Below the pieces are notes generated by a model. The model worked only from the letters and a program-made list of their open reading frames with translations. It searched no databases and was not told where the DNA came from. A DNA stretch of 64,000 nucleotides. Origin: Candidatus Kaiserbacteria bacterium RIFCSPLOWO2_01_FULL_51_21 (GTDB lineage Bacteria > Patescibacteriota > Minisyncoccia > Phycocordibacterales > 2-01-FULL-51-21). The position numbers and the translations under genes were made by a program. Location: positions 11,268-75,267 of the forward strand of contig MFLV01000011.1 in NCBI GenBank assembly GCA_001781435.1. Reading direction: 5' to 3'. Positions 1 to 56,323 of this stretch are shown piece by piece. Every line of letters begins with the position of its first letter. The stretch's first letter is position 1.

Positions 1-1173
1 GATGCGTGTCGGGTCGTCTTTAGGTTTTGCCTGCATACCGGCAAGTTCGTGCACAAAGGGTTTCATTGCCCCATCCATTCCCACATGATGAATAATGGGA
101 ATGGCATTCGCTTGCGCGAGCGCGAGGTCGTCTTCCCCGAACGCCGGAGCAATGTGTACGATGCCGGTTCCTTCCGCCATGGTGACAAAATCGGCGGTGT
201 AAATTTTCCAAGCATTCTCTTTATTCACAAACGACTCGTTGACAAAGTAATCAAATACCGGCCGGTAACGCTTTCCCGCAAGTTCAGAACCCAAAAACTC
301 CGTCACAATCGTGTACACTCCCTCGAGGGTTCTGAGGCGATCGCGTGCCAGAATAAACCGCTCATCGCCAATTTGCACGAGCACGTAGCTTGCGCCGGCC
401 GCTACGGCAAGCGCCATGTTCCCCGGCAGAGTCCACGGCGTTGTGGTCCACGCCAAAAGATAGGTTCGGGGGCCTGCCCCATCAGAAGCGGACACTTGAG
501 CATCGCCAGCTCCACCAGTTCCAATAGGGTCAAGCAATTCGAATTTAACGGTGATGGCAAGATCAGTAACATCTTTATACCCCTGGCTTACTTCAAAATT
601 CGAGAGTGTCGTCCCGCAACGCGGGCACAACTGCATCGCTTTAAATCCTTCGTAAATGAGTTTTCTGTCGAAGAGCGTTTTAAATGCCCACCACACCGAT
701 TCGGTATAGGAAGTGTCCATCGTCTTATAATCGCGCTCCATATCCACGAATCGTCCCATCCGCGGCACGATACGTTTCCAGTCAGCGACATACCTAAGCA
801 CCCTCTCGCGTGCCGCTTTGTTGAAACGACCAACGCCAAGTATTTCAATATCTTTTTTTGTTTTGATATTGAGCTCCTCTTCGATCTGGTTTTCCAAAGG
901 AAGGCCGTGGCAATCCCAACCCCAGCGTCGGCGCACCCGGAAGCCTCGCATCGTTTTGTAGCGCGGAATAGCGTCCTTAATGGTGCCTGCAAGTATGTGC
1001 CCATAATGCGGCAATCCCGTGGCGAATGGGGGGCCATCATAGAAAATAAACTCCCCCAGAGAGGCTTTCTTCCCTTCGGATTTTTGGAAAATATTGTTTT
1101 TATTCCAGAATTCCAAAACCGCCTCTTCTCTCCTCGCCCGCTCGCTCTTTTCCTTCTGTTTCTCCATGTCCAT
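1..1173 (-). CDS. ileS: Isoleucyl-tRNA synthetase, N-terminal 391 aa; the gene continues beyond the window start
   Basis: Minus-strand translation from the ATG at 1171-1173: MDMEKQKEKSERARREEAVLEFWNKNNIFQKSEGKKASLGEFIFYDGPPFATGLPHYGHILAG...WDCHGLPLENQ. The class I HYGH motif is present and there is no stop before position 1. The listed plus-strand ORF 49..1284 is antisense to this gene. Confidence 0.8.
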   Translation of the reverse strand, partial: MDMEKQKEKSERARREEAVLEFWNKNNIFQKSEGKKASLGEFIFYDGPPFATGLPHYGHILAGTIKDAIPRYKTMRGFRVRRRWGWDCHGLPLENQIEEELNIKTKKDIEILGVGRFNKAARERVLRYVADWKRIVPRMGRFVDMERDYKTMDTSYTESVWWAFKTLFDRKLIYEGFKAMQLCPRCGTTLSNFEVSQGYKDVTDLAITVKFELLDPIGTGGAGDAQVSASDGAGPRTYLLAWTTTPWTLPGNMALAVAAGASYVLVQIGDERFILARDRLRTLEGVYTIVTEFLGSELAGKRYRPVFDYFVNESFVNKENAWKIYTADFVTMAEGTGIVHIAPAFGEDDLALAQANAIPIIHHVGMDGAMKPFVHELAGMQAKPKDDPTRI

Positions 1174-1318
1174 AAAAACCTTTATATTGTAACATTTTTG
1201 AAACCCGCCCAAAAAATCTACCCCAGCAAGAATTTTCGCCCCGGGTTTCCCATTTTCTTGATTTATTTTTTATATATGATATAATAAAAATTAGATTAGG
1301 CCATGGGAGGGCCGAACA

Positions 1319-8676: not shown

Positions 8677-9420
8677 TCACTCTCCGCCCTTTTTCCATCG
8701 GACCCTCCGCCAGAACGGCGCGAATATGTCGTCTTTGAGCGAAACACGGAATTCACTCCAGCCGCGCCTCGTACGCCGACCCTGCCATATCGTTTTCGGC
8801 ACCTCACGAATAACTGCAAGGGGTGTTTGTTCGTTTCCTTCTCCCATGACGAGCACTGCCGCCGCGGCAAGTGCGTCAGCCAGGTTTGCTTGCTCCATTT
8901 TAAGACGCCGCCCGAAGATATCGGGAAGTCCTCGGTAATCGTAGAGCGGCTGAAATCCGGAGTAGCCAAGAGCAAAGCCAATAGCCCCGCGGCGAAGTGG
9001 TGTTGACGTCGAGTCGGTGATAATGACTCCAAGATGTTTTAAACGAAAATGGAGCTTGAGTGCGCGGCGCAGGCGCGAAGCCGAAGCGTCGGGATTCTTC
9101 GGCCAGAGGATGTAGTGCCCTTTGCCGTTGCTCTCATCAATGCCGGCATTTCGAATAAGGACGCCGCGTGCGATCGTGTGAAAAACGTTGCGTCCAGCAG
9201 CGCGCGCATTCGGAAGAAAGAGTGAAGATTCCTTCCGAGCAAGCGCCTTTTTATCATTTGCCTCAACCGGGAGACAAAGTCCTTCATGAATACTTACGAC
9301 TTTTGAGGCAACGGCGAGCACATCTCCCTCTCGAAGTCGGAGGTCCGAATGAAAAATCGCCGCGAGGAGGTCATCGTGTGGCGGAATGAGCGCGTGGAGT
9401 TTGACTGGTCTAACGTACAC
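8677..9420 (-). CDS. CofE-like gamma-glutamyl ligase family protein (F420-0:glutamate ligase homolog)
   Basis: GIDESNGKG and VIITDSTSTPLRRGAIGFALGYSG motifs resemble the CofE / folate-related gamma-glutamyl ligase family. It lies next to folA. Confidence 0.45.
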   Translation of the reverse strand: MYVRPVKLHALIPPHDDLLAAIFHSDLRLREGDVLAVASKVVSIHEGLCLPVEANDKKALARKESSLFLPNARAAGRNVFHTIARGVLIRNAGIDESNGKGHYILWPKNPDASASRLRRALKLHFRLKHLGVIITDSTSTPLRRGAIGFALGYSGFQPLYDYRGLPDIFGRRLKMEQANLADALAAAAVLVMGEGNEQTPLAVIREVPKTIWQGRRTRRGWSEFRVSLKDDIFAPFWRRVRWKKGGE

Positions 9421-10135: not shown

Positions 10136-10681
10136 TTAGATTTTTTTTACTTGTAAAAAATCTAGTTCGACCGGCGTTTCCCGCCCGAACATCGGCACGA
10201 GAACCTTTACCTTACCGCGCTCCTCGTCAATCTCTCCGATACGCCCCTCAAGATCTTTAAACGGCCCATCAACGATGATGACTGCGTCGTTTGGCGAAAG
10301 ATCGATGGTGTGTTTCACAATATCCTCTCCCATACGTCTGAAGAGCTCTTCTATTTCAGCTTTTTCAAGCGGTACTGGATGAACGCCGGAGCCGACAAAG
10401 CCGGTCACCCGCGGCGTGTTGCGGACCACATACCAAGAGTCGTCGGTTACCGTCATATCAACGAGTACGTAACCAGGGTAGATTTTTTCCTCTTCCATGA
10501 CCCGTTTGCCTCCCTTGATTTTTATTTTCTTTTCAGTCGGCACCACAACGCTGAAAATTTTGTCCTCCATGCCAAGCGACTCAATGCGCTGCTTCAAGTT
10601 TCGTGCAACCGCATTTTCATATCCCGCGTAGGTGTGGATGGCGTACCAGTTGCGCTCTGTATGTAATCCCTGTTTCGCCAT
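10136..10681 (-). CDS. nusG: Transcription antiterminator NusG
   Basis: NWYAIHTYAGYENAV...KOW-like C-terminus GRETPVELDFLQV. Confidence 0.95.
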   Translation of the reverse strand: MAKQGLHTERNWYAIHTYAGYENAVARNLKQRIESLGMEDKIFSVVVPTEKKIKIKGGKRVMEEEKIYPGYVLVDMTVTDDSWYVVRNTPRVTGFVGSGVHPVPLEKAEIEELFRRMGEDIVKHTIDLSPNDAVIIVDGPFKDLEGRIGEIDEERGKVKVLVPMFGRETPVELDFLQVKKI

Positions 10682-10686
10682 ATTTT

Positions 10687-10869
10687 CTATGCGCCGATAA
10701 TGAGCTTAAGAATCGTTGTAAAAAAGAAATCGAAGACGCCCAAGAAAAATGCGGTGAAAAGCGAGATGCCGATAACAAAGGCCGAGAGCACCAGCGCCTG
10801 CCGGCGGGTGGGCCAACTCACATGCTTGAGCTCTCCGCGTGTCTCCTTAAGATAATCCGTTATGCGCAT
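10687..10869 (-). CDS. secE: Preprotein translocase subunit SecE
   Basis: A 60 aa protein with a single C-terminal TM helix, in the conserved secE-nusG-rplK order. Confidence 0.8.
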   Translation of the reverse strand: MRITDYLKETRGELKHVSWPTRRQALVLSAFVIGISLFTAFFLGVFDFFFTTILKLIIGA

Positions 10870-11083: not shown

Positions 11084-11113
11084 AGAAAAATGAACGGCGC
11101 CGGGGTCGCGGCG
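11084..11113 (+). terminator. Plus-strand intrinsic terminator with no annotated plus-strand gene upstream
   Basis: AACGGCGCCggggtcGCGGCGCCGTTTTTT. Confidence 0.4.
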
Positions 11114-11181
11114 CCGTTTTTTGCGTTGAGGACATTGAGGACTAGGCCTGCGCCGTCCTCCCGCCCGTAGGTTTCTTTTTC

Positions 11182-11499
11182 TTATTGTTCTCGTTGGACG
11201 ACCGGGGGAACGGCAGAGACCTTTCTGCCCGAGCCGTTCGTCCGAATTCCGGCGAGTGTGAAGGCCTGTGCATCAGTCTCGACGTGAAGCACACCAATCC
11301 TCCTCAGCTCCCTCTTGTCCCGAAGATGGTAGCACACCACCCTCACGGACTCTTCTTTCTTCACTACGCCCTCAACACGCAGAAGGTCGTGGGACGGGGT
11401 CTCGCCGATTAAGGTGTACTTGAAAGGCGAGAGTGAAAGATTCTGCTGTTCCGACTGGCGATGCTCCTTCTTCCAGTCTTTCCGGGTCTTCTTGGACAT
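11182..11499 (-). CDS. Hypothetical basic protein
   Basis: ORF only; no recognisable motif. Confidence 0.3.
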   Translation of the reverse strand: MSKKTRKDWKKEHRQSEQQNLSLSPFKYTLIGETPSHDLLRVEGVVKKEESVRVVCYHLRDKRELRRIGVLHVETDAQAFTLAGIRTNGSGRKVSAVPPVVQREQ

Positions 11500-11609: not shown

Positions 11610-12398
11610 TTATCTAATCTCGTAGGTAATGGAGACGTTCGAGACAATTTTATTCTCACCAACCGGCACTTCCGGCGCTATTCTATCCCCGCCCATACCA
11701 AGCCCTTCGGCCTTACCGTAGAAAATCGGGTAGGGCTGCTGCCCCGACTCGCTGAAGCTCACGATGCGAACCAAGGTAACATCGAGGTCTTTGGCTAGAG
11801 CCGCAGCTTTTTCCTTTGCGTCACTGATTGCTTTCTTGCGAGCCTCCTGCTGGAGAGCATCTTCATCGTCAATGGTAAAATCAAGTCCGCTCACGTTGGT
11901 GACACCGAACTCCCCGACTCCCGTGAGAAGCTCCCCGGCTTTTTTTGTGTTGCGCACCTTAACCGACAGCGTCTGATTCACGCGATATCCTTTGAGTATC
12001 TGCTTCCCGGGCGGACAACCGTACTGCGTACATACTTGGTTTTGGTACTCGTATTCCGGATAGACTGAATAGTTCACGGTCTTAAGATCTCTCTCCTCCA
12101 CCCCCTGGGCTTTAAGATAGCTAATGACTTTATTGATTTTGCCTGTCGCAACTTCCTGTGCCTCCGCAACCGTGGCTTTCAGTTCATCGACGGAAACCAT
12201 AAAGGTCGCTATGTCCGGCACCGCAAATACCTCGCCCTCGCCGTTAACCGAAATGGTATTGGAGATTGGCACACCTCCGCCGATAAAACGGTAGCCTTTA
12301 AGCTCAGTAACCGTCTTTGAAAGCACAAAAAGGGAAAGTAGCCCGACGAGCAAAAGAACTGCGGCAGACATGTAGGAACGATTGAGCAAGTCTTGCAT
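11610..12398 (-). CDS. SIMPL-domain (DUF541/BP26-like) periplasmic protein
   Basis: N-terminal TM or signal sequence and a SIMPL-like segment ...NYSVYPEYEY...VSNVSITYEI. Confidence 0.55.
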   Translation of the reverse strand: MQDLLNRSYMSAAVLLLVGLLSLFVLSKTVTELKGYRFIGGGVPISNTISVNGEGEVFAVPDIATFMVSVDELKATVAEAQEVATGKINKVISYLKAQGVEERDLKTVNYSVYPEYEYQNQVCTQYGCPPGKQILKGYRVNQTLSVKVRNTKKAGELLTGVGEFGVTNVSGLDFTIDDEDALQQEARKKAISDAKEKAAALAKDLDVTLVRIVSFSESGQQPYPIFYGKAEGLGMGGDRIAPEVPVGENKIVSNVSITYEIR

Positions 12399-12514
12399 AG
12401 TAGCGAATGCGAGTAGTTATCGGTTACTAATACTATTAAAAAAGCAGTATACCCTGTAGTAGATTTTTCGCAAGAAAAACTCACTACAGGGTATACCCGA
12501 AGAGCCCATGGGTT

Positions 12515-13159
12515 CTAATTAAGGGTATCAGCAAGCTTGTGGTTAACGTCGCGGTGATGCATCTCGTCGTTGCGGGTCGCAATAATGACTTCCCTGAGGC
12601 GCGCGGCAGGAGCAAGAGACCAATAGCGGATAGCGAGTGCGGGAGCAGGGATGTTTTTTCGCTCATTCGCCTCCACTTCCGCCAAATACTCGCTATAGCT
12701 GTGGACCGCGGCCTCTTCGAGATATCCGGCGAGACGATGAGCCGTGTGCGGAGAAAAAAGATAGATGCAGAAATAGCTCAAACCAAACACCCATTGCGCG
12801 ACAAATATCAGCAAACGCTCCAGAGACGTCGGCTGAGCGATATGAATAAACACCATCAAATGCATCCGCTCGTTTTCAGCCTCCGCAAGGAGGGTGCGTA
12901 TCCATCCACCATCGTCGCGAAGGTGGCGAAGCGCCTTGAAATGCTGCATCATCCCGCCGACCATCCCCGGCACCGCCGCAACCGTCTCAAGCACCACGGC
13001 ACGGTGTCCGTACCGCTCTCGAAAAAATGTATCCGCAACCCACAGGGCGAATCGCACCAGCCCATAGGCAACCGTGTCACGGAGACCGTGGGGTTTGTAG
13101 TGAAAGAAGAGCTGGTGCTCTGACACTATTATATTGTCCGGGGTAGCGTGTAGATGCAT
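12515..13159 (-). CDS. aox: Alternative oxidase (AOX/PTOX family di-iron ubiquinol oxidase)
   Basis: Diagnostic AOX motifs are present: LETVAAVPGMVGGM, NERMHL, LEEAAVHSY and RNDEMHHRDVNH. Confidence 0.75.
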   Translation of the reverse strand: MHLHATPDNIIVSEHQLFFHYKPHGLRDTVAYGLVRFALWVADTFFRERYGHRAVVLETVAAVPGMVGGMMQHFKALRHLRDDGGWIRTLLAEAENERMHLMVFIHIAQPTSLERLLIFVAQWVFGLSYFCIYLFSPHTAHRLAGYLEEAAVHSYSEYLAEVEANERKNIPAPALAIRYWSLAPAARLREVIIATRNDEMHHRDVNHKLADTLN

Positions 13160-13193: not shown

Positions 13194-13919
13194 CTAGAAA
13201 TGGGCGAGCTGAATCGCCGCAAACAGTACGCCAACTCCGAGAACGGTCATGAAGGTGGTAAGAATTTTCGGGTGAGCATGGTGACTTTCAGGTATAAGGT
13301 CACTCGCGCCGATGTAGAGAAAGAATCCTGTAAAGAGTGCGAGGATGATGCTTAGATATTTTTCCGGCAGGGTAAAAAAAAGAGTTGAGCCCGCGCCAAG
13401 AACCGGCGTAACTGCGTCCACCAAGAGCCAGCGAAATGCACTGCTACGGCGTCCTGCGTTTTTGAGAACTAAATTGACCGTGTTGATGCCGTCGGAGAAG
13501 TCGTGGACAAGAACTGCGGCTGTTACTACTGCGCCAATCGCCGCAGAGACTTGGAATGCCAGGCCAATTGCCACACCGTCGAGGAAGCTATGGAAACAGA
13601 GGCTCCCCGCTCCAAGAATCCCGCGGTGAGTCGAGGCGTGCTCAACCCCCTCTTCCCCACTGTGGGAATGAAAAAAAATTGTTCTATCAAGTAAAAGATA
13701 GAGGAGAAAACCAACGGTAACAAACTGTGTGACGGTTGCGACGTCAAAAAATTGCTGTCCAAGCTCAATCGATTCTGGCAGTAAATCGAAAAAGGCAACG
13801 CCAATGACCGCTCCGGCGCTAAATCCCAAAATCAAGTGCAACTTGTCGCGGAAACGAAGCGCAAAAAGACCGCCGACGAGTGTTGAGACAAACGCAGCAA
13901 AAGCAATGGCAAGTATCAT
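13194..13919 (-). CDS. zupT: ZIP-family zinc/iron transporter
   Basis: HSFLDGVAIGLAF and HDFSDGIN motifs. The start is chosen at MILAIAF to avoid overlapping tRNA-His. Confidence 0.75.
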   Translation of the reverse strand: MILAIAFAAFVSTLVGGLFALRFRDKLHLILGFSAGAVIGVAFFDLLPESIELGQQFFDVATVTQFVTVGFLLYLLLDRTIFFHSHSGEEGVEHASTHRGILGAGSLCFHSFLDGVAIGLAFQVSAAIGAVVTAAVLVHDFSDGINTVNLVLKNAGRRSSAFRWLLVDAVTPVLGAGSTLFFTLPEKYLSIILALFTGFFLYIGASDLIPESHHAHPKILTTFMTVLGVGVLFAAIQLAHF

Positions 13920-13947: not shown

Positions 13948-14022
13948 TGGGTGCCTACTGGGATTCGAACCCAGTCTGGCTCCTCCACAGGGAGCAGTGC
14001 TGACCATTACACCATAGGCACC
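13948..14022 (-). tRNA. tRNA-His (anticodon GUG), with encoded CCA
   Basis: Reverse complement GGTGCCTATGGTGTAATGGTCAGCACTGCTCCCTGTGGAGGAGCCAGACTGGGTTCGAATCCCAGTAGGCACCCA; anticodon loop CUGUGGA. Confidence 0.8.
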
Positions 14023-14068
14023 ATCTGTTCAAACTAACAAAGTCTGGATAGGCCAATCGTGTTAGTTT

Positions 14069-14155
14069 TGGTGCGCGGGAGAGGATTTGAACCTCCAAGC
14101 CCTTACGGGCACCACCACCTCAAGATGGCGTGTCTACCGATTTCACCACCCGCGC
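14069..14155 (-). tRNA. Type II tRNA with a long variable arm; anticodon read as GAG (Leu)
   Basis: Reverse complement GCGCGGGTGGTGAAATCGGTAGACACGCCATCTTGAGGTGGTG...GGAGGTTCAAATCCTCTCCCGCGCACCA. Confidence 0.65.
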
Positions 14156-14814
14156 GCATTTTTGTCAAGTTTAAGCGCTTTATATATCTTTTCCTTCTTC
14201 CGCGCTAGACAGACAGCGGTATCGCTATAATACATTTTTTTAATAATTTTCAAAGACTCTTTCTTAGCATACTTAAGCTGGTAGGTAGAACCTTTACCGT
14301 CCTTTGTAATATGCCCTATTACTTCTGACCTCACCCGGAGCGATTGCCGGATCCAATCAATAAAACTCTTACTTGCAGAAGCTAACTGTAAGTAGTACAT
14401 GAAACTTGAACGCCACCGTGGATCCCAATAAGAATAAAAAGATCCGTCACCGTCAAAACATCCGCGCAGAAAATCAAAAAAATACTGCTGAGGAACATCG
14501 ACTGCTCCAATGGTCTTTGACTTGGCAGGCGTTAATCCAATACCAAGTAGAAACTGATAAAACAAAATATCCCCGAATTGAACACGGAAGTAATCTCGTT
14601 TTTTATGTCCACTGGAGTGTTTGGCCAATTTAGAGTCAAGACCGAGACAATGTTTGAATGTTTTAAGCTGTTCAATGTCTTTTGACACAAGAACGATATG
14701 GTATCCATCAATTGAAAGACACCCATCGGTCGCAATAAGTCCAATTGCATAGGCAAATTCCGGCGACCATTTAATTTTTACTTTTCCCTTTGGCTTTACC
14801 CCTCTTGCTCCCAC
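14143..14814 (-). mobile_element. Free-standing LAGLIDADG homing endonuclease gene (two-motif, single-chain type); its 3' end overlaps tRNA-Leu by 13 nt
   Basis: Two LAGLIDADG motifs, YAIGLIATDGCL and FLRGCFDGDGSF. The gene is markedly more AT-rich than its flanks. Confidence 0.8.
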
Positions 14815-15706: not shown

Positions 15707-16471
15707 TCACAGAGTCGCAGCGTCCGAGTTGCGGACAAAGAGGCGGTAGTCGGCATCCCAGCGATAGCCGTAGTCGAGCCGGTAGACGTCGACATCCCAC
15801 CCGCCGTCACGGCGACCCGCGAAGACAACCGAGACGAGATCGTTCTTGTCGATGACGAAAAAGAAGTTCGCCCAGCTATCGGTACGCAGACCGACATTCG
15901 TGCCCTTCTCTTGGCGCTCGATGAGCGATTCGATTTGGGGCAAAGCGAAAACGTGGTTTCGTTCGACGAGGAACGAAACCAGTTCGCCGACGTCTCGTGT
16001 CGAGACCTTAAGGACGGCTTGCGCCATCTCAATGAAGGTCAGCTCTTGGCCCAGTGCATAGATTGAGGCCGGGCTGGGAACTTCTGCTCCCTGTTTGGTC
16101 GACAGCCAGCGATCGATGTTGCCGTCGCGATAGCCGTAGAGGTTTTCGCGGAAGCAGTCCTCCGTCTTCTTTTCGGCGGTTGCCGGAAGTTGCACCAGTC
16201 CCCCGATGCGGTTGAGCACCGCGGCAGGAGGAGCGGTGGAAACGGAGTGCGGCTCGGGCACCACCCTATTGAAGCGCCCCTCGATTGCGTCTTGCAGATA
16301 CGCCTTTAGCTCTTCTGGGTTGAACGGATAGCCGTTCGGCTGCCGTAACTGCCTTCCAAGCTCGAAGAGCTGGCCGGTGATGGATTCGTACAAATCGCCT
16401 GCGACCTGTGCGGCCATGACGATATCTCCTTTAGTTTGAAAAGAGCTGTCCCGGGGAGCGGAAACCCACAC
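15707..16471 (-). CDS. Hypothetical protein on a GC-rich island (function unknown)
   Basis: Long ORF of about 60% GC versus about 50% in the surroundings. C-terminus ...GRRDGGWDVDVYRLDYGYRWDADYRLF. A likely start is at MAAQVAGD (16417). Confidence 0.5.
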   Translation of the reverse strand: MWVSAPRDSSFQTKGDIVMAAQVAGDLYESITGQLFELGRQLRQPNGYPFNPEELKAYLQDAIEGRFNRVVPEPHSVSTAPPAAVLNRIGGLVQLPATAEKKTEDCFRENLYGYRDGNIDRWLSTKQGAEVPSPASIYALGQELTFIEMAQAVLKVSTRDVGELVSFLVERNHVFALPQIESLIERQEKGTNVGLRTDSWANFFFVIDKNDLVSVVFAGRRDGGWDVDVYRLDYGYRWDADYRLFVRNSDAATL

Positions 16472-41328: not shown

Positions 41329-43905
41329 GTGTCCCGCGGCTCATCGAGTCTGAAGACTCATCAGAGCCTGAACGACCTCCTTTCTCGCGGAGTGCGCAGT
41401 ATCAGAAAATCGATGTTTAGAAATTCTAAAGACCAAAACAAAAGACGGCATCGCCTCGTTCTTTTAATAAGTGTTGCCCTGCTTATCTTAGGTTCCCTAG
41501 CGCTTTGGGCTGCGAGCCTGCGTGTGCCTGACCTTGCCTCATTTGAGGAGCGTAAGGTTGAGCAGTCAACAAAAATCTACGACCGAACGGGCAACGTTCT
41601 CCTCTACGACCTCCACAAAAACGCCGAGCGCACCGTGATTCCCTACGAGGAAATGCCTCGGTATATCAAAAACGCGACTGTTGCAATCGAGGACGAGGAC
41701 TTCTATCAGCACCGCGGCATTAAAATCTCTTCCGTTCTCCGCGCGGTCCTTGCAAACCTCACCTCTCTCGGTTTTGCCCAAGGAGGTTCGACGATTACCC
41801 AGCAAGTGGTAAAAAACTCCCTTCTCACGAACGAAAAAACAATCACCCGCAAACTCAAAGAGTGGATCCTCGCGCTTAAGCTTGAACGCCTTCTGAGTAA
41901 GGAGGAAATTTTGGAGCTCTATCTCAACGAAACTCCTTACGGGGGAAGCCTGTATGGCGTTGAGGCGGCGACTGAGTCCTATTTCGGCAAGGGGGCGGCA
42001 GAACTTACTCTTGCTGAATCTGCGTACCTTGCCGCTCTTCCTCAGGCGCCGACCTACTATTCACCCTATGGGTCGCATCGCGACAAATTAGAAGAGCGAA
42101 GGGAGCTCGTGCTTAAGCAAATGCTTAAAAACGGGTTCGTCACTGATGCAGAGTACAAGGCCGCTCTTACTGAAAAAGTTGACTTCAAGCTGCCTGAGAG
42201 CGGCAGCATTAAGGCGCCGCATTTTGTGTTCTATGTCCGAGAATACCTTGAGCAAAAGTACGGTGGGGAAGCTCTTGAAAACCGCGGGCTTAAAGTGATC
42301 ACCACTCTCGATTACGAGCTTCAGCGCGAGGCTGAGGAAATCATCGCCAAGGGAGTAGCAAGCAACGAAAAAAATTTCAACGCGTCAAACGCCGGCATGG
42401 TCGCAATTGACCCGACGACGGGACAGATTCTTGTCATGGTGGGCTCCCGCAACTATTTTGACCCGGGTATCGACGGCAACTTTAATGTAACGCTCGCAAA
42501 ACGCCAGCCGGGTTCTTCGTTCAAACCTTTCGTGTATGCTGAGGCGCTCATGAAGGGCTACACCCCGGATACAATTGTATTCGATCTTAAAACCCAATTT
42601 TCAACCGCATGCCGTCCGGACGATTTTTCCAAAGAACCGCCCTGTTTTTCTCCCAACAACTACGACGAAAAATTCCGCGGTCCCGTCACTTTCCGTGAAG
42701 CGCTTGCGCAGTCGCTTAACGTGCCTTCAGTCCAGGTACTCTATCTCGCCGGGATTACCGATTCGCTCCGGCTTGCAAAAAATCTCGGCATTACCACCCT
42801 CACTGACGAGGGCCGGTATGGCCTCACGCTCGTGCTCGGCGGCGGTGAAGTCAGGCTTCTTGACATGACCGGCTCCTACGCCGTATTTGCTAACGACGGG
42901 GTGCGCAACACCCCGACCGGCATTCTCAAAGTTGAGGACGGGAGCGGAGCGCCCCTAGAAGAGTATCGGTCAAGTGCTGCTCAAGTGCTTGACCCGCAGA
43001 TCGCCCGGCAGATAAACGACATCCTCTCCGACAACGTCGCTCGGACTCCCGAATTTGGCGAGGACTCCGCACTCTATTTTCCCGGCTACGAGGTCGCGGA
43101 CAAAACAGGAACAACAAACGACTCTCGAGATGCGTGGGTAATTGGCTACACTCCTTCGATTGCTGTCGGGGCTTGGGCGGGCAATAACGACAACAGCCCT
43201 ATGGTAAAAAAAATCGCCGGATTTATTGTGGCTCCCCTGTGGCATGAGTTTATGATAAAGGCGCTCGAAAAATTTCCGAACGAGACTTTTAAAAAACCGG
43301 AATCTGAAGATACTGAAAACCTCAAACCGATTTTAAAAGGCCTGTGGCAAGGAGGAGAACAATACATTATTGACAGTATCTCCGGAAAGCTCGCCACCCC
43401 CGATACGCCACCCGAACTCCGCAAAACAAAAGTAATCACCGACGTGCACTCGACCCTTTACTGGGTTGACAAAGACAATCCAAGGGGCCCGAAGCCGGAA
43501 ACCCCCGAGGCAGATCCTCAATTCCCGTACTGGGAATACCCCGTAGCGCTTTGGAAGCAGTCGAGAGGCATCGTAAGCGGCGGGACTAAGCCGACTGACT
43601 ATGACAATATCCACGGACCGGCCCTTGCGCCGCACGTCCAGATAACAAGCCCCTCCTCAAACGCGACTCTTGCGATGGGCGGGAGGGTTACGGCACAAAT
43701 CACAAGCCAGGGAGCATACCCACTTTCCAAAGTCGACTTCTTTGTAAACGGCACGTTTCTCGGCTCGGCGAACCGTGCCCCGTTCTCTTTCTCATTCGTT
43801 CCCGCCGAACTTAGTTCAGTGAGGGACGAGAACACCCTGCGGGTCGTTGCGTACGACTCGGTTTTAAACAACGGAAGTGATATGGTGAACTTTTATCTCC
43901 GCTGA
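41329..43905 (+). CDS. mrcA: Class A penicillin-binding protein (PBP1A-type transglycosylase/transpeptidase) with a C-terminal Ig-like domain
   Basis: GT51 motifs EDEDFYQHRGI...RLLSKEEILELYLN. TP motifs SSFKPF...KTGTT. Confidence 0.9.
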   Translation: MSRGSSSLKTHQSLNDLLSRGVRSIRKSMFRNSKDQNKRRHRLVLLISVALLILGSLALWAASLRVPDLASFEERKVEQSTKIYDRTGNVLLYDLHKNAERTVIPYEEMPRYIKNATVAIEDEDFYQHRGIKISSVLRAVLANLTSLGFAQGGSTITQQVVKNSLLTNEKTITRKLKEWILALKLERLLSKEEILELYLNETPYGGSLYGVEAATESYFGKGAAELTLAESAYLAALPQAPTYYSPYGSHRDKLEERRELVLKQMLKNGFVTDAEYKAALTEKVDFKLPESGSIKAPHFVFYVREYLEQKYGGEALENRGLKVITTLDYELQREAEEIIAKGVASNEKNFNASNAGMVAIDPTTGQILVMVGSRNYFDPGIDGNFNVTLAKRQPGSSFKPFVYAEALMKGYTPDTIVFDLKTQFSTACRPDDFSKEPPCFSPNNYDEKFRGPVTFREALAQSLNVPSVQVLYLAGITDSLRLAKNLGITTLTDEGRYGLTLVLGGGEVRLLDMTGSYAVFANDGVRNTPTGILKVEDGSGAPLEEYRSSAAQVLDPQIARQINDILSDNVARTPEFGEDSALYFPGYEVADKTGTTNDSRDAWVIGYTPSIAVGAWAGNNDNSPMVKKIAGFIVAPLWHEFMIKALEKFPNETFKKPESEDTENLKPILKGLWQGGEQYIIDSISGKLATPDTPPELRKTKVITDVHSTLYWVDKDNPRGPKPETPEADPQFPYWEYPVALWKQSRGIVSGGTKPTDYDNIHGPALAPHVQITSPSSNATLAMGGRVTAQITSQGAYPLSKVDFFVNGTFLGSANRAPFSFSFVPAELSSVRDENTLRVVAYDSVLNNGSDMVNFYLR

Positions 43906-43907
43906 GA

Positions 43908-44162
43908 TTAGCGTAAATCTTTCACGGTGCCGGGAAGCTCCTCATGAAGCCGCTTGAGAATCGACTCTTTTTTAAGAAGAATTTCTCCGCGCACGAGCGG
44001 CGGGACGGCAAGATACACGGTGCCTCTTTGGTAACGAAGTGCCTCGTTTGAAGTGGGGAATCCAGTCACCGCAGTAATATGCGCCGCTACCCGCTCTCGA
44101 ACGTGGCGTGTGGAAGAGAGAGAGGAAAAGCGTCCAAGGAGTGTTTTAATGTGCTGAAGCAT
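43908..44162 (-). CDS. DUF721 / DciA-like protein
   Basis: An 84 aa protein immediately downstream of dnaN; DUF721 proteins typically sit in this position. Confidence 0.45.
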   Translation of the reverse strand: MLQHIKTLLGRFSSLSSTRHVRERVAAHITAVTGFPTSNEALRYQRGTVYLAVPPLVRGEILLKKESILKRLHEELPGTVKDLR

Positions 44163-44280
44163 ACTTTGTTACCACAACGTAGCGTGAGCGAGGTAATTTT
44201 GCAGCACCGCGAATATTTTTCGCGAACATGGTTTTTTCAGCTTTTTCATAATGCAAATCTTGTAAAAATTATAGGGGGCA

Positions 44281-45372
44281 TTACCGGTTCATTGGCATGA
44301 CGAGGTAGAGAAAGGAGGTGTCTGAAACGTCCCGAATCACCATCGGCTTTCCCGAACCGTTAAAGGTAAGAGAGACGCTGTCTCCGGTAATTGCCTGGAA
44401 ACAATCGGTGAGATATTTGAGATTGAAGTTAATCGTGACGTCCTCGCCCATGATTGCCGCAGTAACCGTGTCGGTTGTTTCCCCGATATCGCTTTTCGCT
44501 GAAATGATGAACTGTTTCTTTTTAGGGTAAACCGTGATGCCAACTTGGTTGAATTTACCTGAAAACACCATCGCCTTCTTAAAGATGAGAAGGAGGTCTT
44601 GTTTCAAGAGTACCACTTCAGTCGCTTTCTCCTTCGGGATAATCTGGCGGTAGTCGGGAAAGGTTCCTTCCACGGTTCGTGAGGTAAGGTACAGGTCGTT
44701 GAAAATAAAGGAGATTTGATGTTCACCGACACGGACCGTCATGTCCCCTCTCGTGCGCTCAAGAACTCGAAGCACCTCCGGCACCGCCCGCACAGGAAGG
44801 AGAAAAGGCTTAAATTCATACGGTTGTTTTGTCGGGATTATTCTTTCAGCGAGACGGAATGAATCAGTGGCAACAAAAACTAACTTATTTCCCTCGGGGT
44901 ATACGTATACACTCCCAAGTTCAGGCTTTACGGTTGATAACGATGCACTGTACCACACTGATTTTATTCCCTTTAGAAAATCTCCTTCATTGAAACGGAG
45001 TGGTTTAGTGGTAATGGTAGGGAGGGTCGGAAAGTCGTCGGGTGAAACGGTGGTAATGAGTGTTTCACTTGTCGGTGTTTTGAGAGAGAAAGTGTTACCT
45101 TTTACTTCCAAAGAAACCGAGGTGTTGTAGGTATTGATGAGTGTGTTAAGAAGAATTTCAGCCGGAACCGCAACAATTCCCTCAGAAGTTGCTTTTACTG
45201 GTATTGTTGCTTCGATGCCAAGCTCAAGATTTGTTGAGCGTATAACAAGAGAGTTGTTTTTAACTGAAAGCAGAAGATAGTTGAGGATGGGAAGTGTTGG
45301 ATGACGTTTAGCAATCCGTTCAGTGATTGAAACAGCCTCAGTAAGTTGTTCACGTACACATTCAAGCTTCAT
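44281..45372 (-). CDS. dnaN: DNA polymerase III beta sliding clamp
   Basis: MKLECVREQLTEAVSITERIAKRHPTLPILNYLLLSVKNNSLVIRS. Confidence 0.9.
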   Translation of the reverse strand: MKLECVREQLTEAVSITERIAKRHPTLPILNYLLLSVKNNSLVIRSTNLELGIEATIPVKATSEGIVAVPAEILLNTLINTYNTSVSLEVKGNTFSLKTPTSETLITTVSPDDFPTLPTITTKPLRFNEGDFLKGIKSVWYSASLSTVKPELGSVYVYPEGNKLVFVATDSFRLAERIIPTKQPYEFKPFLLPVRAVPEVLRVLERTRGDMTVRVGEHQISFIFNDLYLTSRTVEGTFPDYRQIIPKEKATEVVLLKQDLLLIFKKAMVFSGKFNQVGITVYPKKKQFIISAKSDIGETTDTVTAAIMGEDVTINFNLKYLTDCFQAITGDSVSLTFNGSGKPMVIRDVSDTSFLYLVMPMNR

Positions 45373-45601
45373 AGAAGTATTATTTTATTTCTCTATATAA
45401 ATCTTTTACTATTATTAGTGGTGTGGATAGGGTGAAAAGTGATTAAAATCACTTATTTAAAGAACATTTTCTATTTCAAGTTGTTCTTAATGGTGTGAAT
45501 AAGTTTTGTTTTTTATCGGATAACTCCTTTTTATTTTTTTCCATACACATTTGAGACACACATTCTCACTTCTTATCCGCGGCTAATAAAGGGGTTATCC
45601 A
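45373..45601. promoter_or_regulatory. Candidate oriC: AT-rich dnaA-dnaN intergenic region with five or more DnaA-box-like 9-mers
   Basis: TGTGGATAG (45421), TGTGAATAA (45493), TTATCGGATAAC (45513), TTATCCGCG (45572), TTATCCACT (45593). Confidence 0.55.
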
Positions 45602-46987
45602 CTACTTTAACAAAGCTCTGATCTGCTCCAACTCTTCAGTAAGGGTGGAGTTTAGTTTTATTTCGTTTCTCATTTTTTCGCAAGAGTGGATGACGGTGGT
45701 ATGGTCGCGCCCCCCGAGCTTTTGGCCGATGGTCGGATAAGAAACACGGAAGTCTTCTCGTAAAAGGTACATAATAATCTGCCGTGGGCGCACGACTTCC
45801 TTCCGCCGCGTTTTTTCGTAGATGTTCGATTCATCAATCTCATAAAAGTCGGCGACCTTTTTGATGACGTCTTTCACGGAAATAAGCTTTTTAGGGCGCG
45901 AAGTGTCTCGGATAAGATTTTTTACCTCAAGAAGGTCCAATGTTTTTCCTTTAAGTTGTGTTTGACAGATAATTGAGTTCAGCACCCCTTCCAACTCTCG
46001 GATATTTCCTTGGATATTCTCCGCAAGGTGCTCAACAATACTTTTCTCAAGAACAAAATTATTATGGCTTGCCTTTGCTTGGAGAATGGCAACCCGCGAT
46101 TCGTAATCCGGTTCTGCGATATCCGCAACCATGCCTGCCGCAAAGCGGGATTTTAAGCGCTCGTCGATATTTTGTATGTAGTTGGGATGTTTGTCGGAGG
46201 AAAAAACAATCTGCTTGTTGTTGTCGTAGAGAGCGTTAAAAAGATGGAACAGTTCCTCCTGGGTTTTCTCGGTTTTTGAAAAAAACTGTACGTCGTCCAT
46301 AATAAACACATCGTAGACGCGGTACTTCTCTTTAAATTGATTCATTTTGTTTTCCTGCAGGGAGTTCATGTAATCGACTGCGAATTTTTCCGATGTCATG
46401 TAGTAAACTTTCTTACTCGGACTTGTTTTTTTAATATGGTTGCCGATTGCCTGCATAAGGTGCGTCTTGCCGCGCCCGGTGCCTCCGTAAATAAAGAACG
46501 GGTTGTATGCAATGCCGGGTTTTTGAATAATCGCCTGAGCCGCAGCGTAGGCAAGGTTATTGAATGGACCCACGACAAAGGTATCGAAGGTGTACCGCGG
46601 ATTGAGGTTGTCGCTTTTATTGATATTGAAGTCGAAGGGAAGCTCGGAGAGGGGGGTCAGTGTTTTCAGCGATTCCTCTTTTTGTTTCCGACGATCTCTG
46701 GCAATAACATACTCAAGACCGCGTACCCCGTCTGAAAAACCACGCAGGGTTTTGAGGATGAATTTGTGGTACTTTGTGGAAAGCCAGTCTTTAACAAATT
46801 GATTTGGGACTCCAACATACACCACCCCCTCCTCTTGTTTGACGACGTGGGTATCTTTAAACCAAGTGCTGAAGTTCGCTTTCGATATTGAAAGCTCAAT
46901 ATCAACAAGAGCGTTTTCCCAAAGTTGTTTTGGGTCGAGAGTTTTTCCCACCACGTGACTTCTGCTGTTTGTTGTGTACACTTCCAT
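45602..46987 (-). CDS. dnaA: Chromosomal replication initiator DnaA
   Basis: NPFFIYGGTGRGKTHLMQAIGN...VFIMDDVQFF...C-terminal HTH. The ORF could extend to 47068. Confidence 0.9.
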   Translation of the reverse strand: MEVYTTNSRSHVVGKTLDPKQLWENALVDIELSISKANFSTWFKDTHVVKQEEGVVYVGVPNQFVKDWLSTKYHKFILKTLRGFSDGVRGLEYVIARDRRKQKEESLKTLTPLSELPFDFNINKSDNLNPRYTFDTFVVGPFNNLAYAAAQAIIQKPGIAYNPFFIYGGTGRGKTHLMQAIGNHIKKTSPSKKVYYMTSEKFAVDYMNSLQENKMNQFKEKYRVYDVFIMDDVQFFSKTEKTQEELFHLFNALYDNNKQIVFSSDKHPNYIQNIDERLKSRFAAGMVADIAEPDYESRVAILQAKASHNNFVLEKSIVEHLAENIQGNIRELEGVLNSIICQTQLKGKTLDLLEVKNLIRDTSRPKKLISVKDVIKKVADFYEIDESNIYEKTRRKEVVRPRQIIMYLLREDFRVSYPTIGQKLGGRDHTTVIHSCEKMRNEIKLNSTLTEELEQIRALLK

Positions 46988-47289
46988 ATTTTCAAAGGTG
47001 AGTGGCGATGAGGTTGCAAAGGCAGTACTTAGTATAGGCAGGCTTTCGTTTTTGTAAAACTTCCTCAAAAAGCCCGAATGTGTTCATAAGGTGTGCATAA
47101 CGTGTGAACACTGTGAAAAGCGCTTACTGGGGTTTACCCCGTTAGAAGTAGGGCGCGAACATGGTTTTGTGGGTAAAGAAAACAGGTAGACCTCCCCGGG
47201 TAACAAAGAGATTCGCTGTTAAAACTAACTGCGTCCGCGACTTCTAATGGGGTTTACGCGATACGCTAAATACGGTATGGTATCTTTGT

Positions 47290-49174: not shown

Positions 49175-49224
49175 GGTACGAATAGTTCTATTCGTAATTC
49201 TTAATTCGTGCTTCGCTATTCGCT
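49175..49224. repeat. TACGAAT/ATTCGTA heptamer repeat between convergent jag and the T4SS-like cluster
   Basis: ggtacgaatagttctattcgtaattcttaattcgtgcttcgctattcgc. Confidence 0.6.
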
Positions 49225-53852: not shown

Positions 53853-53855
53853 AGA

Positions 53856-54611: not shown

Positions 54612-54612
54612 G

Positions 54613-55479: not shown

Positions 55480-55485
55480 ATTGGT

Positions 55486-56321: not shown

Positions 56322-56323
56322 AG

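What the first reader, a model, noticed from the sequence alone, without database searches (positions are those of the whole stretch)
12515..13159. Alternative oxidase (AOX/PTOX) homolog in a small-genome, CPR-like context
The 214-aa protein has the LET-A-PGMV, NERMHL, EEA-H-Y and RxxExxHRDxNH di-iron ligand motifs of ubiquinol:oxygen alternative oxidases. AOX is sporadic in bacteria and unexpected where a respiratory chain and quinones are typically absent. It sits with a SIMPL-domain protein and a ZIP metal transporter, upstream of tRNAs and the homing endonuclease. This is an accessory-like neighbourhood suggestive of horizontal acquisition. Its role could be O2 detoxification using an alternative reductant.
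Basis: partly seen in the sequence, partly recalled or inferred. Interest (0 to 1): 0.6.

Follow-up and report, generated by a model that had tools for sequence, protein, structure and literature searches.

The report
Alternative oxidase gene in a CPR bacterium
A tiny-genome groundwater bacterium (Candidatus Kaiserbacteria) that should have no respiratory chain carries an intact, long-retained, horizontally acquired alternative oxidase, a one-protein, haem-free enzyme that turns oxygen into water, although two residues normally conserved at its quinol entrance are missing.

Summary
Window 12515-13159 (minus strand) encodes an intact 214-aa alternative oxidase: Pfam AOX 249 bits, all six iron ligands, the catalytic Tyr, and a predicted fold with TM 0.82 to trypanosomal AOX. 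The genome is Candidatus Kaiserbacteria RIFCSPHIGHO2_02_FULL_50_9, a CPR bacterium.

The gene is not a recent island. It forms a ZIP-AOX operon ending in a strong terminator, inserted upstream of an ancestral SIMPL-secE-nusG-rplK block. Six related lineages share this position, 30 other relatives lack the gene, its GC is ameliorated, and it is under strong purifying selection.

It belongs to a clade nested among proteobacterial AOXs. All named members of that clade are Parcubacteria. The clade has lost Arg96 (TAO numbering), and this protein has also lost its ion-pair partner Glu215, the proposed proton acceptor.

About 72 kb of the genome shows no quinone or respiratory genes; the rest could not be searched.

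The most likely function is non-energy-conserving O2 reduction using a scavenged quinol, for oxygen tolerance and redox balance.

It is a new member of a known family with a variant quinol entrance. Only one paper notes a CPR AOX, in passing. Interest is moderate.

The parts
12515..13159 (-). AOX coding sequence, 214 aa (alternative oxidase, di-iron carboxylate protein)
   Evidence: ORF. Pfam PF01786 at 249 bits. TAO 3vv9 E = 1.5e-46. AF2 model pLDDT 82, TM 0.82 to 5zdp/3vv9.
12986..12988 (-). Codon of Glu58 = TAO Glu123 (Fe ligand, LET motif)
   Evidence: invariant in all homologs
12860..12871 (-). Codons Glu97..His100 = TAO Glu162/His165 (Fe ligands, NERMHL motif)
12695..12718 (-). Codons Glu148 (= TAO Glu213, Fe ligand), Ala150 (= TAO Glu215, proton acceptor, LOST), Ala151, Ser154, Tyr155 (= TAO Tyr220, catalytic Tyr)
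   Evidence: Role of Glu215 from PMC11492382. The Ala codon GCC is two changes from any Glu codon.
12554..12565 (-). Codons Glu199..His202 = TAO Glu266/His269 (Fe ligands, DEMHHRD motif; Met200 is clade-specific where other AOXs have Ala)
13043..13045 (-). Codon of Leu39 = TAO Arg96 position (conserved Arg LOST)
   Evidence: Ungapped alignment anchored by W40/D43/T44/F45. Arg in 111 of 111 proteobacterial homologs, Leu/Ala in all 7 clade members.
13194..13919 (-). ZIP-family metal transporter, 241 aa, 34 nt upstream of AOX on the same strand: first gene of the ZIP-AOX unit
   Evidence: Pfam Zip 79 bits. Called as 241 aa on public contigs. Spacer. A ZIP gene lies within 2 kb of AOX in 6 of 6 AOX-bearing lineages, in 0 of 30 AOX-less relatives, and in 0 of 80 proteobacterial AOX loci.
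12435..12498 (-). Intrinsic terminator after AOX: 15+7 bp hairpin (12447-12498) followed by a U-run
   Evidence: RNA fold dG -36.4 kcal/mol, z = -4.63, 0 of 200 shuffles as stable; coordinates
11610..12398 (-). SIMPL/YggE-like protein, 262 aa: downstream neighbour, a separate transcription unit, ancestral to the locus
   Evidence: Pfam SIMPL 167 bits. Found immediately upstream of secE in 18-22 of 30 AOX-less relatives.
13949..14155 (-). tRNA-His(GTG) 13949-14021 and tRNA-Leu(GAG) 14069-14155, directly upstream of ZIP on the same strand
   Evidence: ARAGORN; sequence
14143..14814 (-). Free-standing LAGLIDADG homing-endonuclease-like ORF bordering the insertion region
   Evidence: Pfam LAGLIDADG_3 E = 4e-9. 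GC 0.41 and GC3 0.37 against window means of 0.505 and 0.553. Found at the same place in L010 and L096.
10136..10869 (-). secE (10687-10869) and nusG (10136-10681): conserved core anchor of the locus
   Evidence: used as anchor

Best explanation
The gene encodes a functional, membrane-peripheral, di-iron alternative oxidase. An ancestor of a Kaiserbacteria subclade acquired it from a proteobacterium and it has been inherited vertically since. It is transcribed with a ZIP divalent-metal importer, which could supply the two irons.

Most likely mechanism. A reduced lipophilic quinol in the cell membrane binds in the hydrophobic cavity. Because CPR bacteria are not known to make quinones, this quinol is probably scavenged from a host or the environment and reduced by an as yet unidentified dehydrogenase. 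The quinol passes electrons to the Tyr155/di-iron centre, which reduces O2 to water without pumping protons. The enzyme therefore serves to remove oxygen, limit reactive oxygen species and re-oxidise reducing equivalents in oxic groundwater; it does not conserve energy. It needs no haem, no copper and only one small gene, which suits a minimal genome.

The Arg96/Glu215 ion pair that gates semiquinol deprotonation in canonical AOX is absent here (Leu39/Ala150). The proton probably leaves via Asp43 (TAO Asp100) or directly to solvent, and kinetics, pH optimum or quinol preference are probably altered.

Shown: gene integrity, family membership, ligands, fold, operon, evolutionary history, residue losses. 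Inferred: activity, substrate, donor, physiological role.
For: Family and active site: Pfam AOX 249 bits. All six ligands are conserved, as are Tyr220, Asn161, Asp265, Tyr246, Trp247, Arg118, Leu122, Leu212 and Ala216 equivalents (TAO numbering verified in PMC9246349 and PMC6204527). The AF2 model has pLDDT 82 and TM 0.82 with rmsd 2.5 A to TAO; the next family (COQ7) scores only E = 0.34.

Retained function: pN is 0.18-0.26 while pS is saturated at 0.71-0.87 between four lineages. The ligands are invariant across the clade.

Genuine CPR gene: 22 contigs from independent ENA, JGI and NCBI assemblies show the same housekeeping flanks. The locus is about 33 kb from dnaA. GC is 0.549 and GC3 0.619, within about 1 SD of the window genes, and AOX GC tracks local GC in each lineage.

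Single old acquisition: the 7-cluster clade has NJ bootstrap 0.99. The gene occupies the same locus in 6 lineages. It is absent from 0 of 30 NusG-anchored relatives. The nearest outsiders are alpha-, beta- and gamma-proteobacteria at 55-68% identity, and the clade nests inside them when rooted on TAO. This agrees with PMC9540462.

Operon: 34-nt ZIP-AOX spacer and a terminator with z = -4.6.

[quoted passage not shown] CPR cytochrome o oxidases have been read as O2 detoxification (PMC9938205). Blastocystis AOX buffers O2 in an anaerobe (PMC6204527).

Ecology: all named genomes in the clade come from Rifle high-O2 or O2-injection samples, judging by the codes HIGHO2 and RIFOXY (design in PMC5079060).

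Pair loss is tolerated in the family: loss of Arg96 and loss of Glu215 are coupled across 111 diverse representatives (odds ratio 30, p = 3e-6). TAO E215Q keeps about 60% activity, with Asp100 as the alternative acceptor.
Against: No quinone biosynthesis gene, NADH dehydrogenase, other quinone reductase or cytochrome gene appears in the roughly 72 kb of this genome that could be read. CPR bacteria in general lack them (PMC8672522). The substrate and donor are therefore unidentified.

Arg96 is reported as 'fully conserved' and mechanistically important (PMC11492382), and R96A is reported to cause drastic activity loss in other AOXs (PMC6213860). This protein also lacks Glu215. Canonical ubiquinol oxidase activity may therefore be weak or altered.

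No expression or activity data exist. The oxygen-sample correlation rests on five genome names and is confounded by how many Rifle genomes come from those samples.
Confidence: 0.6

Rival explanations
1. The enzyme is a functional di-iron oxidase whose physiological reductant is not a canonical ubiquinol. Candidates are a low-potential or different quinol (menaquinol- or rhodoquinol-like, taken from a non-proteobacterial host) or another lipophilic or phenolic reductant. On this view, the remodelled cavity entrance is an adaptation to that substrate.
For: All clade members replace the Arg96 equivalent and share T168V, I262T and mostly A267M. The Kaiserbacteria group also has Y191G, in the cavity-lining helix. 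A subgroup has R96L/V plus D100N plus Ser219, the same trio reported for Blastocystis AOX, which its authors propose uses rhodoquinol (PMC6204527). Ubiquinone is confined to Proteobacteria among bacteria (own knowledge), and CPR make no quinone.
Against: The head-group contacts Arg118, Leu122, Leu212, Ala216 and Ser219 and the Tyr/di-iron core match those of ubiquinol-using proteobacterial AOXs. Ser219 is universal in bacterial AOX, so it is not diagnostic. About 13% of diverse AOX representatives also lack Arg96, including eukaryotic isoforms in ubiquinone-containing mitochondria (rice AOX1d in PMC6213860). Arg96 loss therefore need not mean a new substrate.
Confidence: 0.22
2. The protein is catalytically crippled: a decaying relic, or a protein retained for a non-oxidase role such as iron binding or sensing. 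The reason would be that it lost both the Arg96 and Glu215 members of the proton-gating pair.
For: R96A is reported to cause drastic loss of activity in other AOXs. Glu215 is proposed as the primary proton acceptor. The gene is linked to metal transporters (ZIP, VIT1, CDF) rather than redox enzymes in Kaiserbacteria. Most clade members have an N-terminal MHxH motif.
Against: There is strong purifying selection with every ligand and second-sphere residue invariant across lineages whose synonymous sites are saturated. The ORF is intact on 22 contigs. TAO E215Q retains about 60% activity and even E215Q/D100N retains 19%. Coupled loss of both residues recurs in the family, which looks like an alternative working configuration.
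Confidence: 0.08
3. The gene is an assembly or binning artefact: a proteobacterial AOX gene wrongly joined to a CPR contig.
For: AOX is otherwise almost exclusively proteobacterial among bacteria (PMC9540462).
Against: The identical gene has CPR housekeeping genes on both sides on 22 contigs from different samples, assemblers and databases. Orthologues sit at the same locus in five further lineages. GC is ameliorated. The clade is distinct, at <=68% identity to any proteobacterial sequence.
Confidence: 0.01

Closest known systems
Proteobacterial alternative oxidases (e.g. Novosphingobium aromaticivorans AOX, Vibrio fischeri AOX; cited in PMC9246349)
   Same: Same Pfam family, same short bacterial length (about 200-220 aa, no N-terminal arm), 55-68% identity. 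The ligands, catalytic Tyr, second sphere and quinol head-group contacts are identical.
   Different: The host has no known respiratory chain or quinone synthesis. The Arg96 equivalent, Arg in 111 of 111 proteobacterial homologs examined, is Leu. The Glu215 equivalent is Ala. Clade-specific changes are T168V, I262T, A267M and Y191G. The gene is linked to a ZIP transporter, which none of 80 proteobacterial loci shows.
Trypanosoma brucei alternative oxidase (TAO; PDB 3VV9, 5ZDP)
   Same: 46% identity. The predicted fold superposes at TM 0.82 and rmsd 2.5 A. All six ligands and Tyr220 are conserved.
   Different: It lacks the N-terminal dimerisation arm and an 8-residue insertion before helix 2. 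It lacks the Arg96-Glu215 ion pair proposed to gate proton transfer (PMC11492382).
Blastocystis alternative oxidase (PMC6204527)
   Same: It is an AOX in an organism regarded as anaerobic and lacking a classical chain, proposed to buffer transient oxygen. Arg96 is replaced by a hydrophobic residue and Thr219 by Ser.
   Different: It is eukaryotic and mitochondrion-related, with complex II and rhodoquinone synthesis (RquA) as a defined electron source. The window protein keeps Asp100, and no donor is known.
Cytochrome o/bo3 ubiquinol oxidase of Saccharibacteria and some Parcubacteria (PMC6031116, PMC9938205, PMC12577380)
   Same: A functional analogue: a lone terminal quinol oxidase in CPR genomes that lack the rest of the chain and quinone synthesis. 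It has been interpreted as O2 scavenging using scavenged quinone.
   Different: It is an unrelated multi-subunit haem-copper proton pump that also needs scavenged haem. AOX is a single 214-aa di-iron protein that conserves no energy.

Membership tests
Alternative oxidase (Pfam PF01786; ubiquinol oxidase, non-electrogenic, EC 1.10.3.11) | Sequence matches the family profile above the curated threshold over its full length | tested here: met
   249.2 bits against cutoff 22.7, profile positions 12-216 of 216
Alternative oxidase (Pfam PF01786; ubiquinol oxidase, non-electrogenic, EC 1.10.3.11) | Six di-iron ligands (TAO E123, E162, H165, E213, E266, H269) | tested here: met
   E58, E97, H100, E148, E199, H202. 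Invariant in clade and outgroups. Numbering from PMC9246349 and PMC6204527.
Alternative oxidase (Pfam PF01786; ubiquinol oxidase, non-electrogenic, EC 1.10.3.11) | Catalytic Tyr220 and second-sphere N161, D265, Y246, W247 | tested here: met
   Y155, N96, D198, Y179, W180
Alternative oxidase (Pfam PF01786; ubiquinol oxidase, non-electrogenic, EC 1.10.3.11) | Four-helix-bundle di-iron fold with flanking amphipathic helices, as in TAO | tested here: met
   AF2 pLDDT 82.3, pTM 0.81. Foldseek gives TM 0.82, rmsd 2.5 A, E = 3e-12 to 5zdp/3vv9; the best non-AOX hit is COQ7 at E = 0.34.
Alternative oxidase (Pfam PF01786; ubiquinol oxidase, non-electrogenic, EC 1.10.3.11) | Quinol head-group pocket residues R118, L122, L212, A216, T/S219 | tested here: met
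   R53, L57, L147, A151, S154
Alternative oxidase (Pfam PF01786; ubiquinol oxidase, non-electrogenic, EC 1.10.3.11) | Glu215-Arg96 ion pair at the cavity entrance (proton-acceptor gate; Arg96 described as fully conserved in PMC11492382) | tested here: not met
   Leu39 and Ala150. This is a conserved mechanistic feature, not a formal family criterion. About 13% of diverse representatives also lack Arg96, and its loss is coupled with Glu215 loss.
Alternative oxidase (Pfam PF01786; ubiquinol oxidase, non-electrogenic, EC 1.10.3.11) | Cyanide-insensitive, SHAM/ascofuranone-sensitive quinol:O2 oxidoreductase activity | not testable with these tools
   Requires expression and respirometry
Alternative oxidase (Pfam PF01786; ubiquinol oxidase, non-electrogenic, EC 1.10.3.11) | A membrane quinone pool and at least one quinone reductase in the same organism | tested here: inconclusive
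   None found in about 72 kb around the gene. The rest of GCA_001781525.1 could not be retrieved with these tools.
Plastid terminal oxidase (PTOX/IMMUTANS-type plastoquinol oxidase) | Groups with cyanobacterial/plastid PTOX rather than AOX proper | tested here: not met
   All close relatives are AOX or 'ubiquinol oxidase' of Proteobacteria at 55-68% identity and mitochondrial AOX at 46%. No PTOX-named relative appears among the best hits. A dedicated AOX/PTOX tree was not built.
Other ferritin-like di-iron families (COQ7, bacterioferritin, RNR R2, Dps) | Best sequence or fold match to one of these instead of AOX | tested here: not met
   Only AOX in Pfam at E < 0.01. Fold matches: COQ7 TM 0.38, bacterioferritin TM 0.41, R2 TM 0.35, all with E > 0.3.

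The most novel reading that the evidence does not exclude
Parcubacteria (Kaiser-, Yonath- and Lloydbacteria and relatives) share a lineage-specific AOX clade. On this reading, its rebuilt quinol entrance (no Arg96, often no Asp100 or Glu215) adapts it to work as a stand-alone, haem-free oxygen reductase on host-derived or non-ubiquinone reductants. That would make it a previously unrecognised minimal 'respiratory' module, explaining how some ultra-small symbionts thrive in oxic groundwater. It would also be a natural test of the Arg96/Glu215 proton-gating model of AOX catalysis.
Probability: 0.3. Interest if true: 0.7.

Novelty: new member of a known kind. Interest (0 to 1): 0.5.

Why it matters
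CPR/Patescibacteria are usually described as obligate fermenters without terminal oxidases, yet many persist and grow in oxic groundwater (PMC12577380). A single-gene, haem- and copper-free oxidase would be the cheapest conceivable way for a minimal genome to consume O2 and re-oxidise cofactors. It is retained under purifying selection in several Parcubacteria lineages and is coupled to a metal importer.

It also raises a concrete, testable question: do these cells hold scavenged quinones, and what reduces them?

For AOX enzymology, the clade offers natural variants lacking the supposedly invariant Arg96, and here also Glu215. These variants test the 2024 proton-coupled electron-transfer model directly.

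The finding is not a new kind of system. The gene is already annotated as an oxidase, and one phylogeny paper noted a CPR hit as a probable proteobacterial transfer.

Tried and rejected
It returned only Proteobacteria at <=66% identity and did not even return the source genome, so it says nothing about spread within CPR.

2. The consensus promoter/terminator scan did no better than shuffles and missed the real terminator, which folding then found.

3. Within-population differences in AOX are all synonymous. I discarded this as evidence because those contigs were retrieved by exact protein identity, which makes the result circular.

4. Candidate donors next to AOX in other CPR-clade loci are a TIGR00275 flavoprotein, a GlcD/YdiJ-like FAD dehydrogenase, DoxX, a nitroreductase and a desaturase. 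None has a homologue in the window or in the Kaiserbacteria loci held.

5. UbiE-like methyltransferases near AOX in L179 score far below NCBIfam cutoffs (76 bits against 158). I rejected them as evidence for quinone tailoring.

6. ZIP, SIMPL, VIT1 and CDF were not co-transferred with AOX. None occurs in 80 proteobacterial AOX loci, and SIMPL pre-dates AOX at the locus.

7. The claim that Arg96 is universal was tested on 150 diverse representatives. It is only about 87% conserved, so I toned down the claim of uniqueness.

8. The 411-aa ORF at 49-1284 (+) is spurious. The real gene there is IleRS on the minus strand, running off the window start.

9. Contamination or misbinning is rejected.

10. 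PTOX and other ferritin-like families are rejected.

11. Literature searches pairing 'alternative oxidase' with Parcubacteria, Patescibacteria or Candidate Phyla Radiation found one relevant sentence (PMC9540462). The two Patescibacteria hits were unrelated.

12. The TAO structure paper (Shiba 2013) is not held, so residue roles are cited from PMC9246349, PMC6204527, PMC6213860 and PMC11492382.
Full report
OBSERVATION. The four quoted motifs are present: LETVAAVPGMV, NERMHL, LEEAAVHSY and RNDEMHHRDVNH. It matches Pfam PF01786 (AOX) at 249 bits, E = 4e-74, over essentially the whole profile. It matches the solved Trypanosoma brucei alternative oxidase (TAO, 3VV9) at E = 1.5e-46 with 46% identity. 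No other Pfam family matches. NCBIfam holds no AOX model.

ORGANISM AND SETTING. The protein is 100% identical to 'oxidase [Candidatus Kaiserbacteria bacterium RIFCSPHIGHO2_02_FULL_50_9]', assembly GCA_001781525.1. It occurs with identical flanks on 22 contigs from ENA, JGI and NCBI assemblies, so the 'CPR-like' guess is correct.

The window is core chromosome. It holds dnaA, dnaN, rnpA and yidC at 44-49 kb, with the cumulative GC-skew minimum at 42-44 kb. It also holds ribosomal proteins, aminoacyl-tRNA synthetases, thymidylate and folate genes, RuvABC, PolA, a PBP, type IV pilus genes and a T4SS-like cluster. In the 64-kb window plus about 8 kb beyond its left end there is no quinone-biosynthesis gene, NADH dehydrogenase, other quinone reductase or cytochrome gene.

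FAMILY MEMBERSHIP. On the ungapped HMMER alignment to TAO, all six iron ligands are present: E58, E97, H100, E148, E199 and H202, equivalent to TAO E123, E162, H165, E213, E266 and H269. Also present are:
- the catalytic Tyr (Y155 = Y220);
- the second sphere (N96, D198, Y179, W180);
- the quinol head-group contacts R53, L57, L147, A151 and S154.

The TAO numbering was verified in PMC9246349 and PMC6204527. An AlphaFold2 model built on 35 homologs (pLDDT 82, pTM 0.81) superposes on TAO with TM 0.82 and rmsd 2.5 A. The next-best family, COQ7, reaches only E = 0.34 and TM 0.38.

EVOLUTIONARY HISTORY. The closest relatives are six further 90%-identity clusters at 66-77% identity. Where named, they are Kaiserbacteria or 'Candidatus Paceibacterota'. 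Beyond them lie hundreds of alpha-, beta- and gamma-proteobacterial AOXs at 55-68% identity. The seven clusters form a clade with NJ bootstrap 0.99.

In all six lineages for which a contig exists, AOX occupies the same chromosomal interval, between rplS (often with a LAGLIDADG ORF) and SIMPL-secE-nusG-rplK-DHFR-thyA-SHMT-argS. A ZIP transporter always lies within 2 kb, with VIT1, CDF, DgkA or PAP2 genes variably present.

I used NusG as an anchor to collect 80 loci from related genomes (75-84% NusG identity). None of the 30 with more than 7 kb of upstream sequence contains AOX or ZIP, but 22 carry SIMPL, mostly directly upstream of secE. SIMPL-secE-nusG-rplK is therefore ancestral, and ZIP+AOX is an insertion confined to a subclade.

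None of 80 proteobacterial AOX loci has a ZIP, SIMPL, VIT1 or CDF neighbour, so the metal-transporter linkage arose in the CPR lineage.

The gene is compositionally ameliorated. Its GC is 0.549 and GC3 0.619, against window means of 0.505 +/- 0.036 and 0.553 +/- 0.066, and AOX GC tracks the local GC in each lineage. Between lineages, synonymous sites are saturated (pS 0.71-0.87) while pN is only 0.18-0.26. Together these results indicate one old horizontal acquisition followed by vertical inheritance under strong purifying selection. It is not a recent accessory island, and it is not an assembly artefact.

OPERON ANATOMY. ZIP (ATG at 13919; the longer GTG ORF overlaps tRNA-His) ends 34 nt before the AOX start. 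The 116-nt AOX-SIMPL spacer folds into a 15+7 bp hairpin followed by UGCUUUUUU, with dG -36.4 kcal/mol, z = -4.6 and 0 of 200 shuffles as stable. This is a canonical intrinsic terminator. ZIP-AOX is thus one transcription unit, possibly read through from the upstream tRNA-Leu and tRNA-His genes, and SIMPL is transcribed separately. That matches the evolutionary inference.

TAO Arg96 lies at the entrance of the quinol cavity. A 2024 QM/MM and mutagenesis study describes it as 'fully conserved'. In that model it forms the ion pair that gates proton transfer from the semiquinone to Glu215. E215Q retains about 60% activity with the pH optimum shifted from 8 to 5.5, D100N retains 40%, and the double mutant 19% (PMC11492382). 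R96A is reported to cause drastic loss of activity in other AOXs (PMC6213860).

The equivalent position is Arg in 111 of 111 proteobacterial homologs but Leu or Ala in all seven Kaiserbacteria-clade proteins. The window protein (Leu39) also has Ala150 in place of Glu215, and its closest sister has Thr there. Further clade-specific changes are T168V, I262T, A267M (next to ligand E266) and Y191G in the cavity-lining helix.

A profile search built from the clade and site typing showed a wider Arg96-less group. Together with one Arg-retaining cluster, it forms a 48-sequence clade with NJ bootstrap 0.86, computed with the diagnostic columns removed. Every member that carries an organism name is a Parcubacterium: Kaiserbacteria (two genomes), Paceibacterota, Yonathbacteria (RIFOXYC1_FULL_52_10 and RIFOXYD1_FULL_52_36) and Lloydbacteria (RIFOXYC12_FULL_46_25). 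Many members are unnamed. A subgroup also has D100N, giving the R96x/D100N/S219 trio reported for Blastocystis AOX.

Arg96 is present in about 87% of them, so it is not strictly universal. Its loss is tightly coupled to loss of Glu215: the counts are 8/5/5/93, odds ratio 30, p = 3e-6. Loss of both partners is therefore a recurrent and apparently viable configuration rather than a sign of decay. It predicts altered proton exit (via Asp43, the Asp100 equivalent, or to solvent), and possibly altered pH dependence or quinol preference.

CANDIDATE PARTNERS ELSEWHERE IN THE CLADE. In the Yonathbacteria locus and in two unnamed contigs, AOX lies next to several other genes:
- a TIGR00275 'aminoacetone oxidase family' flavoprotein (403-419 bits against cutoff 184);
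- a GlcD/YdiJ-like FAD dehydrogenase;
- a SET-domain protein;
- a P-type ATPase.

In one Kaiserbacteria-clade contig it lies next to a membrane fatty-acid-desaturase-like protein. None of these occurs in the window. They are leads for the electron donor, not evidence.

MECHANISM. The best-supported reading (confidence about 0.6) is a working AOX-type oxidase. It sits on the cytoplasmic face of the membrane and takes electrons from a lipophilic quinol. That quinol is most plausibly scavenged, as proposed for Saccharibacteria carrying Ndh and cytochrome bo3 but no quinone pathway (PMC6031116). The enzyme reduces O2 to water without energy conservation.

The role would be oxygen removal and redox balancing, as suggested for lone cytochrome o oxidases in CPR (PMC9938205) and shown for Blastocystis AOX. 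The co-transcribed ZIP importer could supply iron. All named genomes of the clade come from Rifle samples coded HIGHO2 or RIFOXY (natural high-oxygen and oxygen-injection groundwater; PMC5079060), which is suggestive but weak.

The rivals are:
- a different reductant or quinol, fitted by the rebuilt entrance (0.22);
- a crippled or moonlighting protein (0.08), which purifying selection on every catalytic residue argues against;
- an artefact (0.01).

NOVELTY. The gene has been annotated as an oxidase since 2016. One paper on Naegleria AOX noted a single CPR hit as a probable proteobacterial transfer (PMC9540462). No paper in the searchable library discusses AOX in Parcubacteria or Patescibacteria, and recent papers on CPR oxygen adaptation do not mention it.

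The new points here are the Parcubacteria-associated clade, its fixed syntenic insertion with ZIP, its absence from most relatives, and the loss of the Arg96/Glu215 pair. I file it as a new member of a known kind with a variant quinol entrance, of moderate interest (0.5).

LIMITS. The trees are neighbour-joining on sequences chosen by similarity to the query. Deep nodes and the direction of transfer are therefore only indicative. The taxonomic claim for the wider clade rests on the minority of sequences that carry names. Activity, substrate, donor and expression are all untested.

Noticed in passing
window 14143-14814 (-), overlapping tRNA-Leu 14069-14155: A free-standing LAGLIDADG-like ORF (223 aa) is the strongest compositional outlier in the window (GC 0.41, GC3 0.37, against means of 0.505 and 0.553). 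Its stop codon lies 13 nt inside tRNA-Leu(GAG). Orthologues sit at the same place next to rplS in two other AOX-bearing lineages (L010, L096), but none was found in the 80 NusG-anchored relatives.
   Followed up: partly
window 12435-12498 (-): The AOX-SIMPL spacer holds a strong intrinsic terminator: a 15+7 bp hairpin plus a U-run, z = -4.6. The consensus scanner missed it. A promoter-like TTGCGA-16-TATACT (12473..12446) overlaps the hairpin.
   Followed up: yes
AOX family alignment (representatives P0242-P0391): Across diverse AOX representatives, loss of Arg96 and loss of Glu215 (TAO numbering) are strongly coupled (odds ratio about 30, p = 3e-6). This fits the proposed ion pair. It also shows that Arg96 is about 87% conserved rather than 'fully conserved'.
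   Followed up: partly
L178 10715-11989; L093 3937-8114; L179 9994-14449: In the D100N subgroup of the Arg96-less AOX clade (Yonathbacteria and two unnamed contigs), AOX sits next to a TIGR00275 'aminoacetone oxidase family' flavoprotein, a GlcD/YdiJ-like FAD dehydrogenase (66% identical between contigs), a SET-domain protein (70% identical) and a P-type ATPase. This may be a conserved redox module.
   Followed up: partly
L094 400-1992: In one Kaiserbacteria-clade contig, AOX lies immediately downstream of a membrane FA_desaturase-family (di-iron, O2-dependent) gene, with MFS and ZIP genes nearby.
   Followed up: no
window 13148-13159 (-); AOX residues 1-4: The Kaiserbacteria-clade AOX proteins begin with a His-rich MHxH motif (MHLH, MHHH) that proteobacterial homologs lack. 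It might bind metal.
   Followed up: no
window 15707-16471 (-): A 254-aa ORF (called as 236 aa on public contigs) between rplS and the pseudouridine synthase gene has no Pfam or NCBIfam match. It has the highest GC3 in the window (0.71, about +2.3 SD). Only one weak relative (31%) appeared among 80 related loci.
   Followed up: no
window 1-1284 and L181 12617-16156: The 411-aa plus-strand ORF at 49-1284 is spurious. The real gene there is a 1179-aa IleRS on the minus strand, running off the window start. Its Pfam hits include a His_Phos_1 (histidine phosphatase) domain inserted between the tRNA-synt_1 segments; the same is seen in L096.
   Followed up: partly
window 8677-9420 (-): A CofE-like F420_ligase-family protein (247 aa) sits next to rplK in a CPR genome not expected to use F420. 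Only 4 of 80 related loci have a relative, at 35-42% identity.
   Followed up: no
window 49216-58423 (-): There is a T4SS-like gene cluster in the chromosome near the origin, made up of a TrbC/VirB2-like pilin, a VirB4/TraG P-loop ATPase and TrbL/VirB6-like proteins, interspersed with ORFs lacking any Pfam match.
   Followed up: no
window 42000-47100: The cumulative GC-skew minimum at 42-44 kb lies next to dnaN (44281-45372) and dnaA (45602-47068). The window probably contains the replication origin.
   Followed up: no
window 11092-11119 and 11182-11499 (-): A 105-aa ORF without any family match follows SIMPL. It is called on all public contigs of this population but is not conserved in sister lineages. 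A GC-rich bidirectional terminator-like hairpin (11 pairs) follows it, before secE.
   Followed up: no
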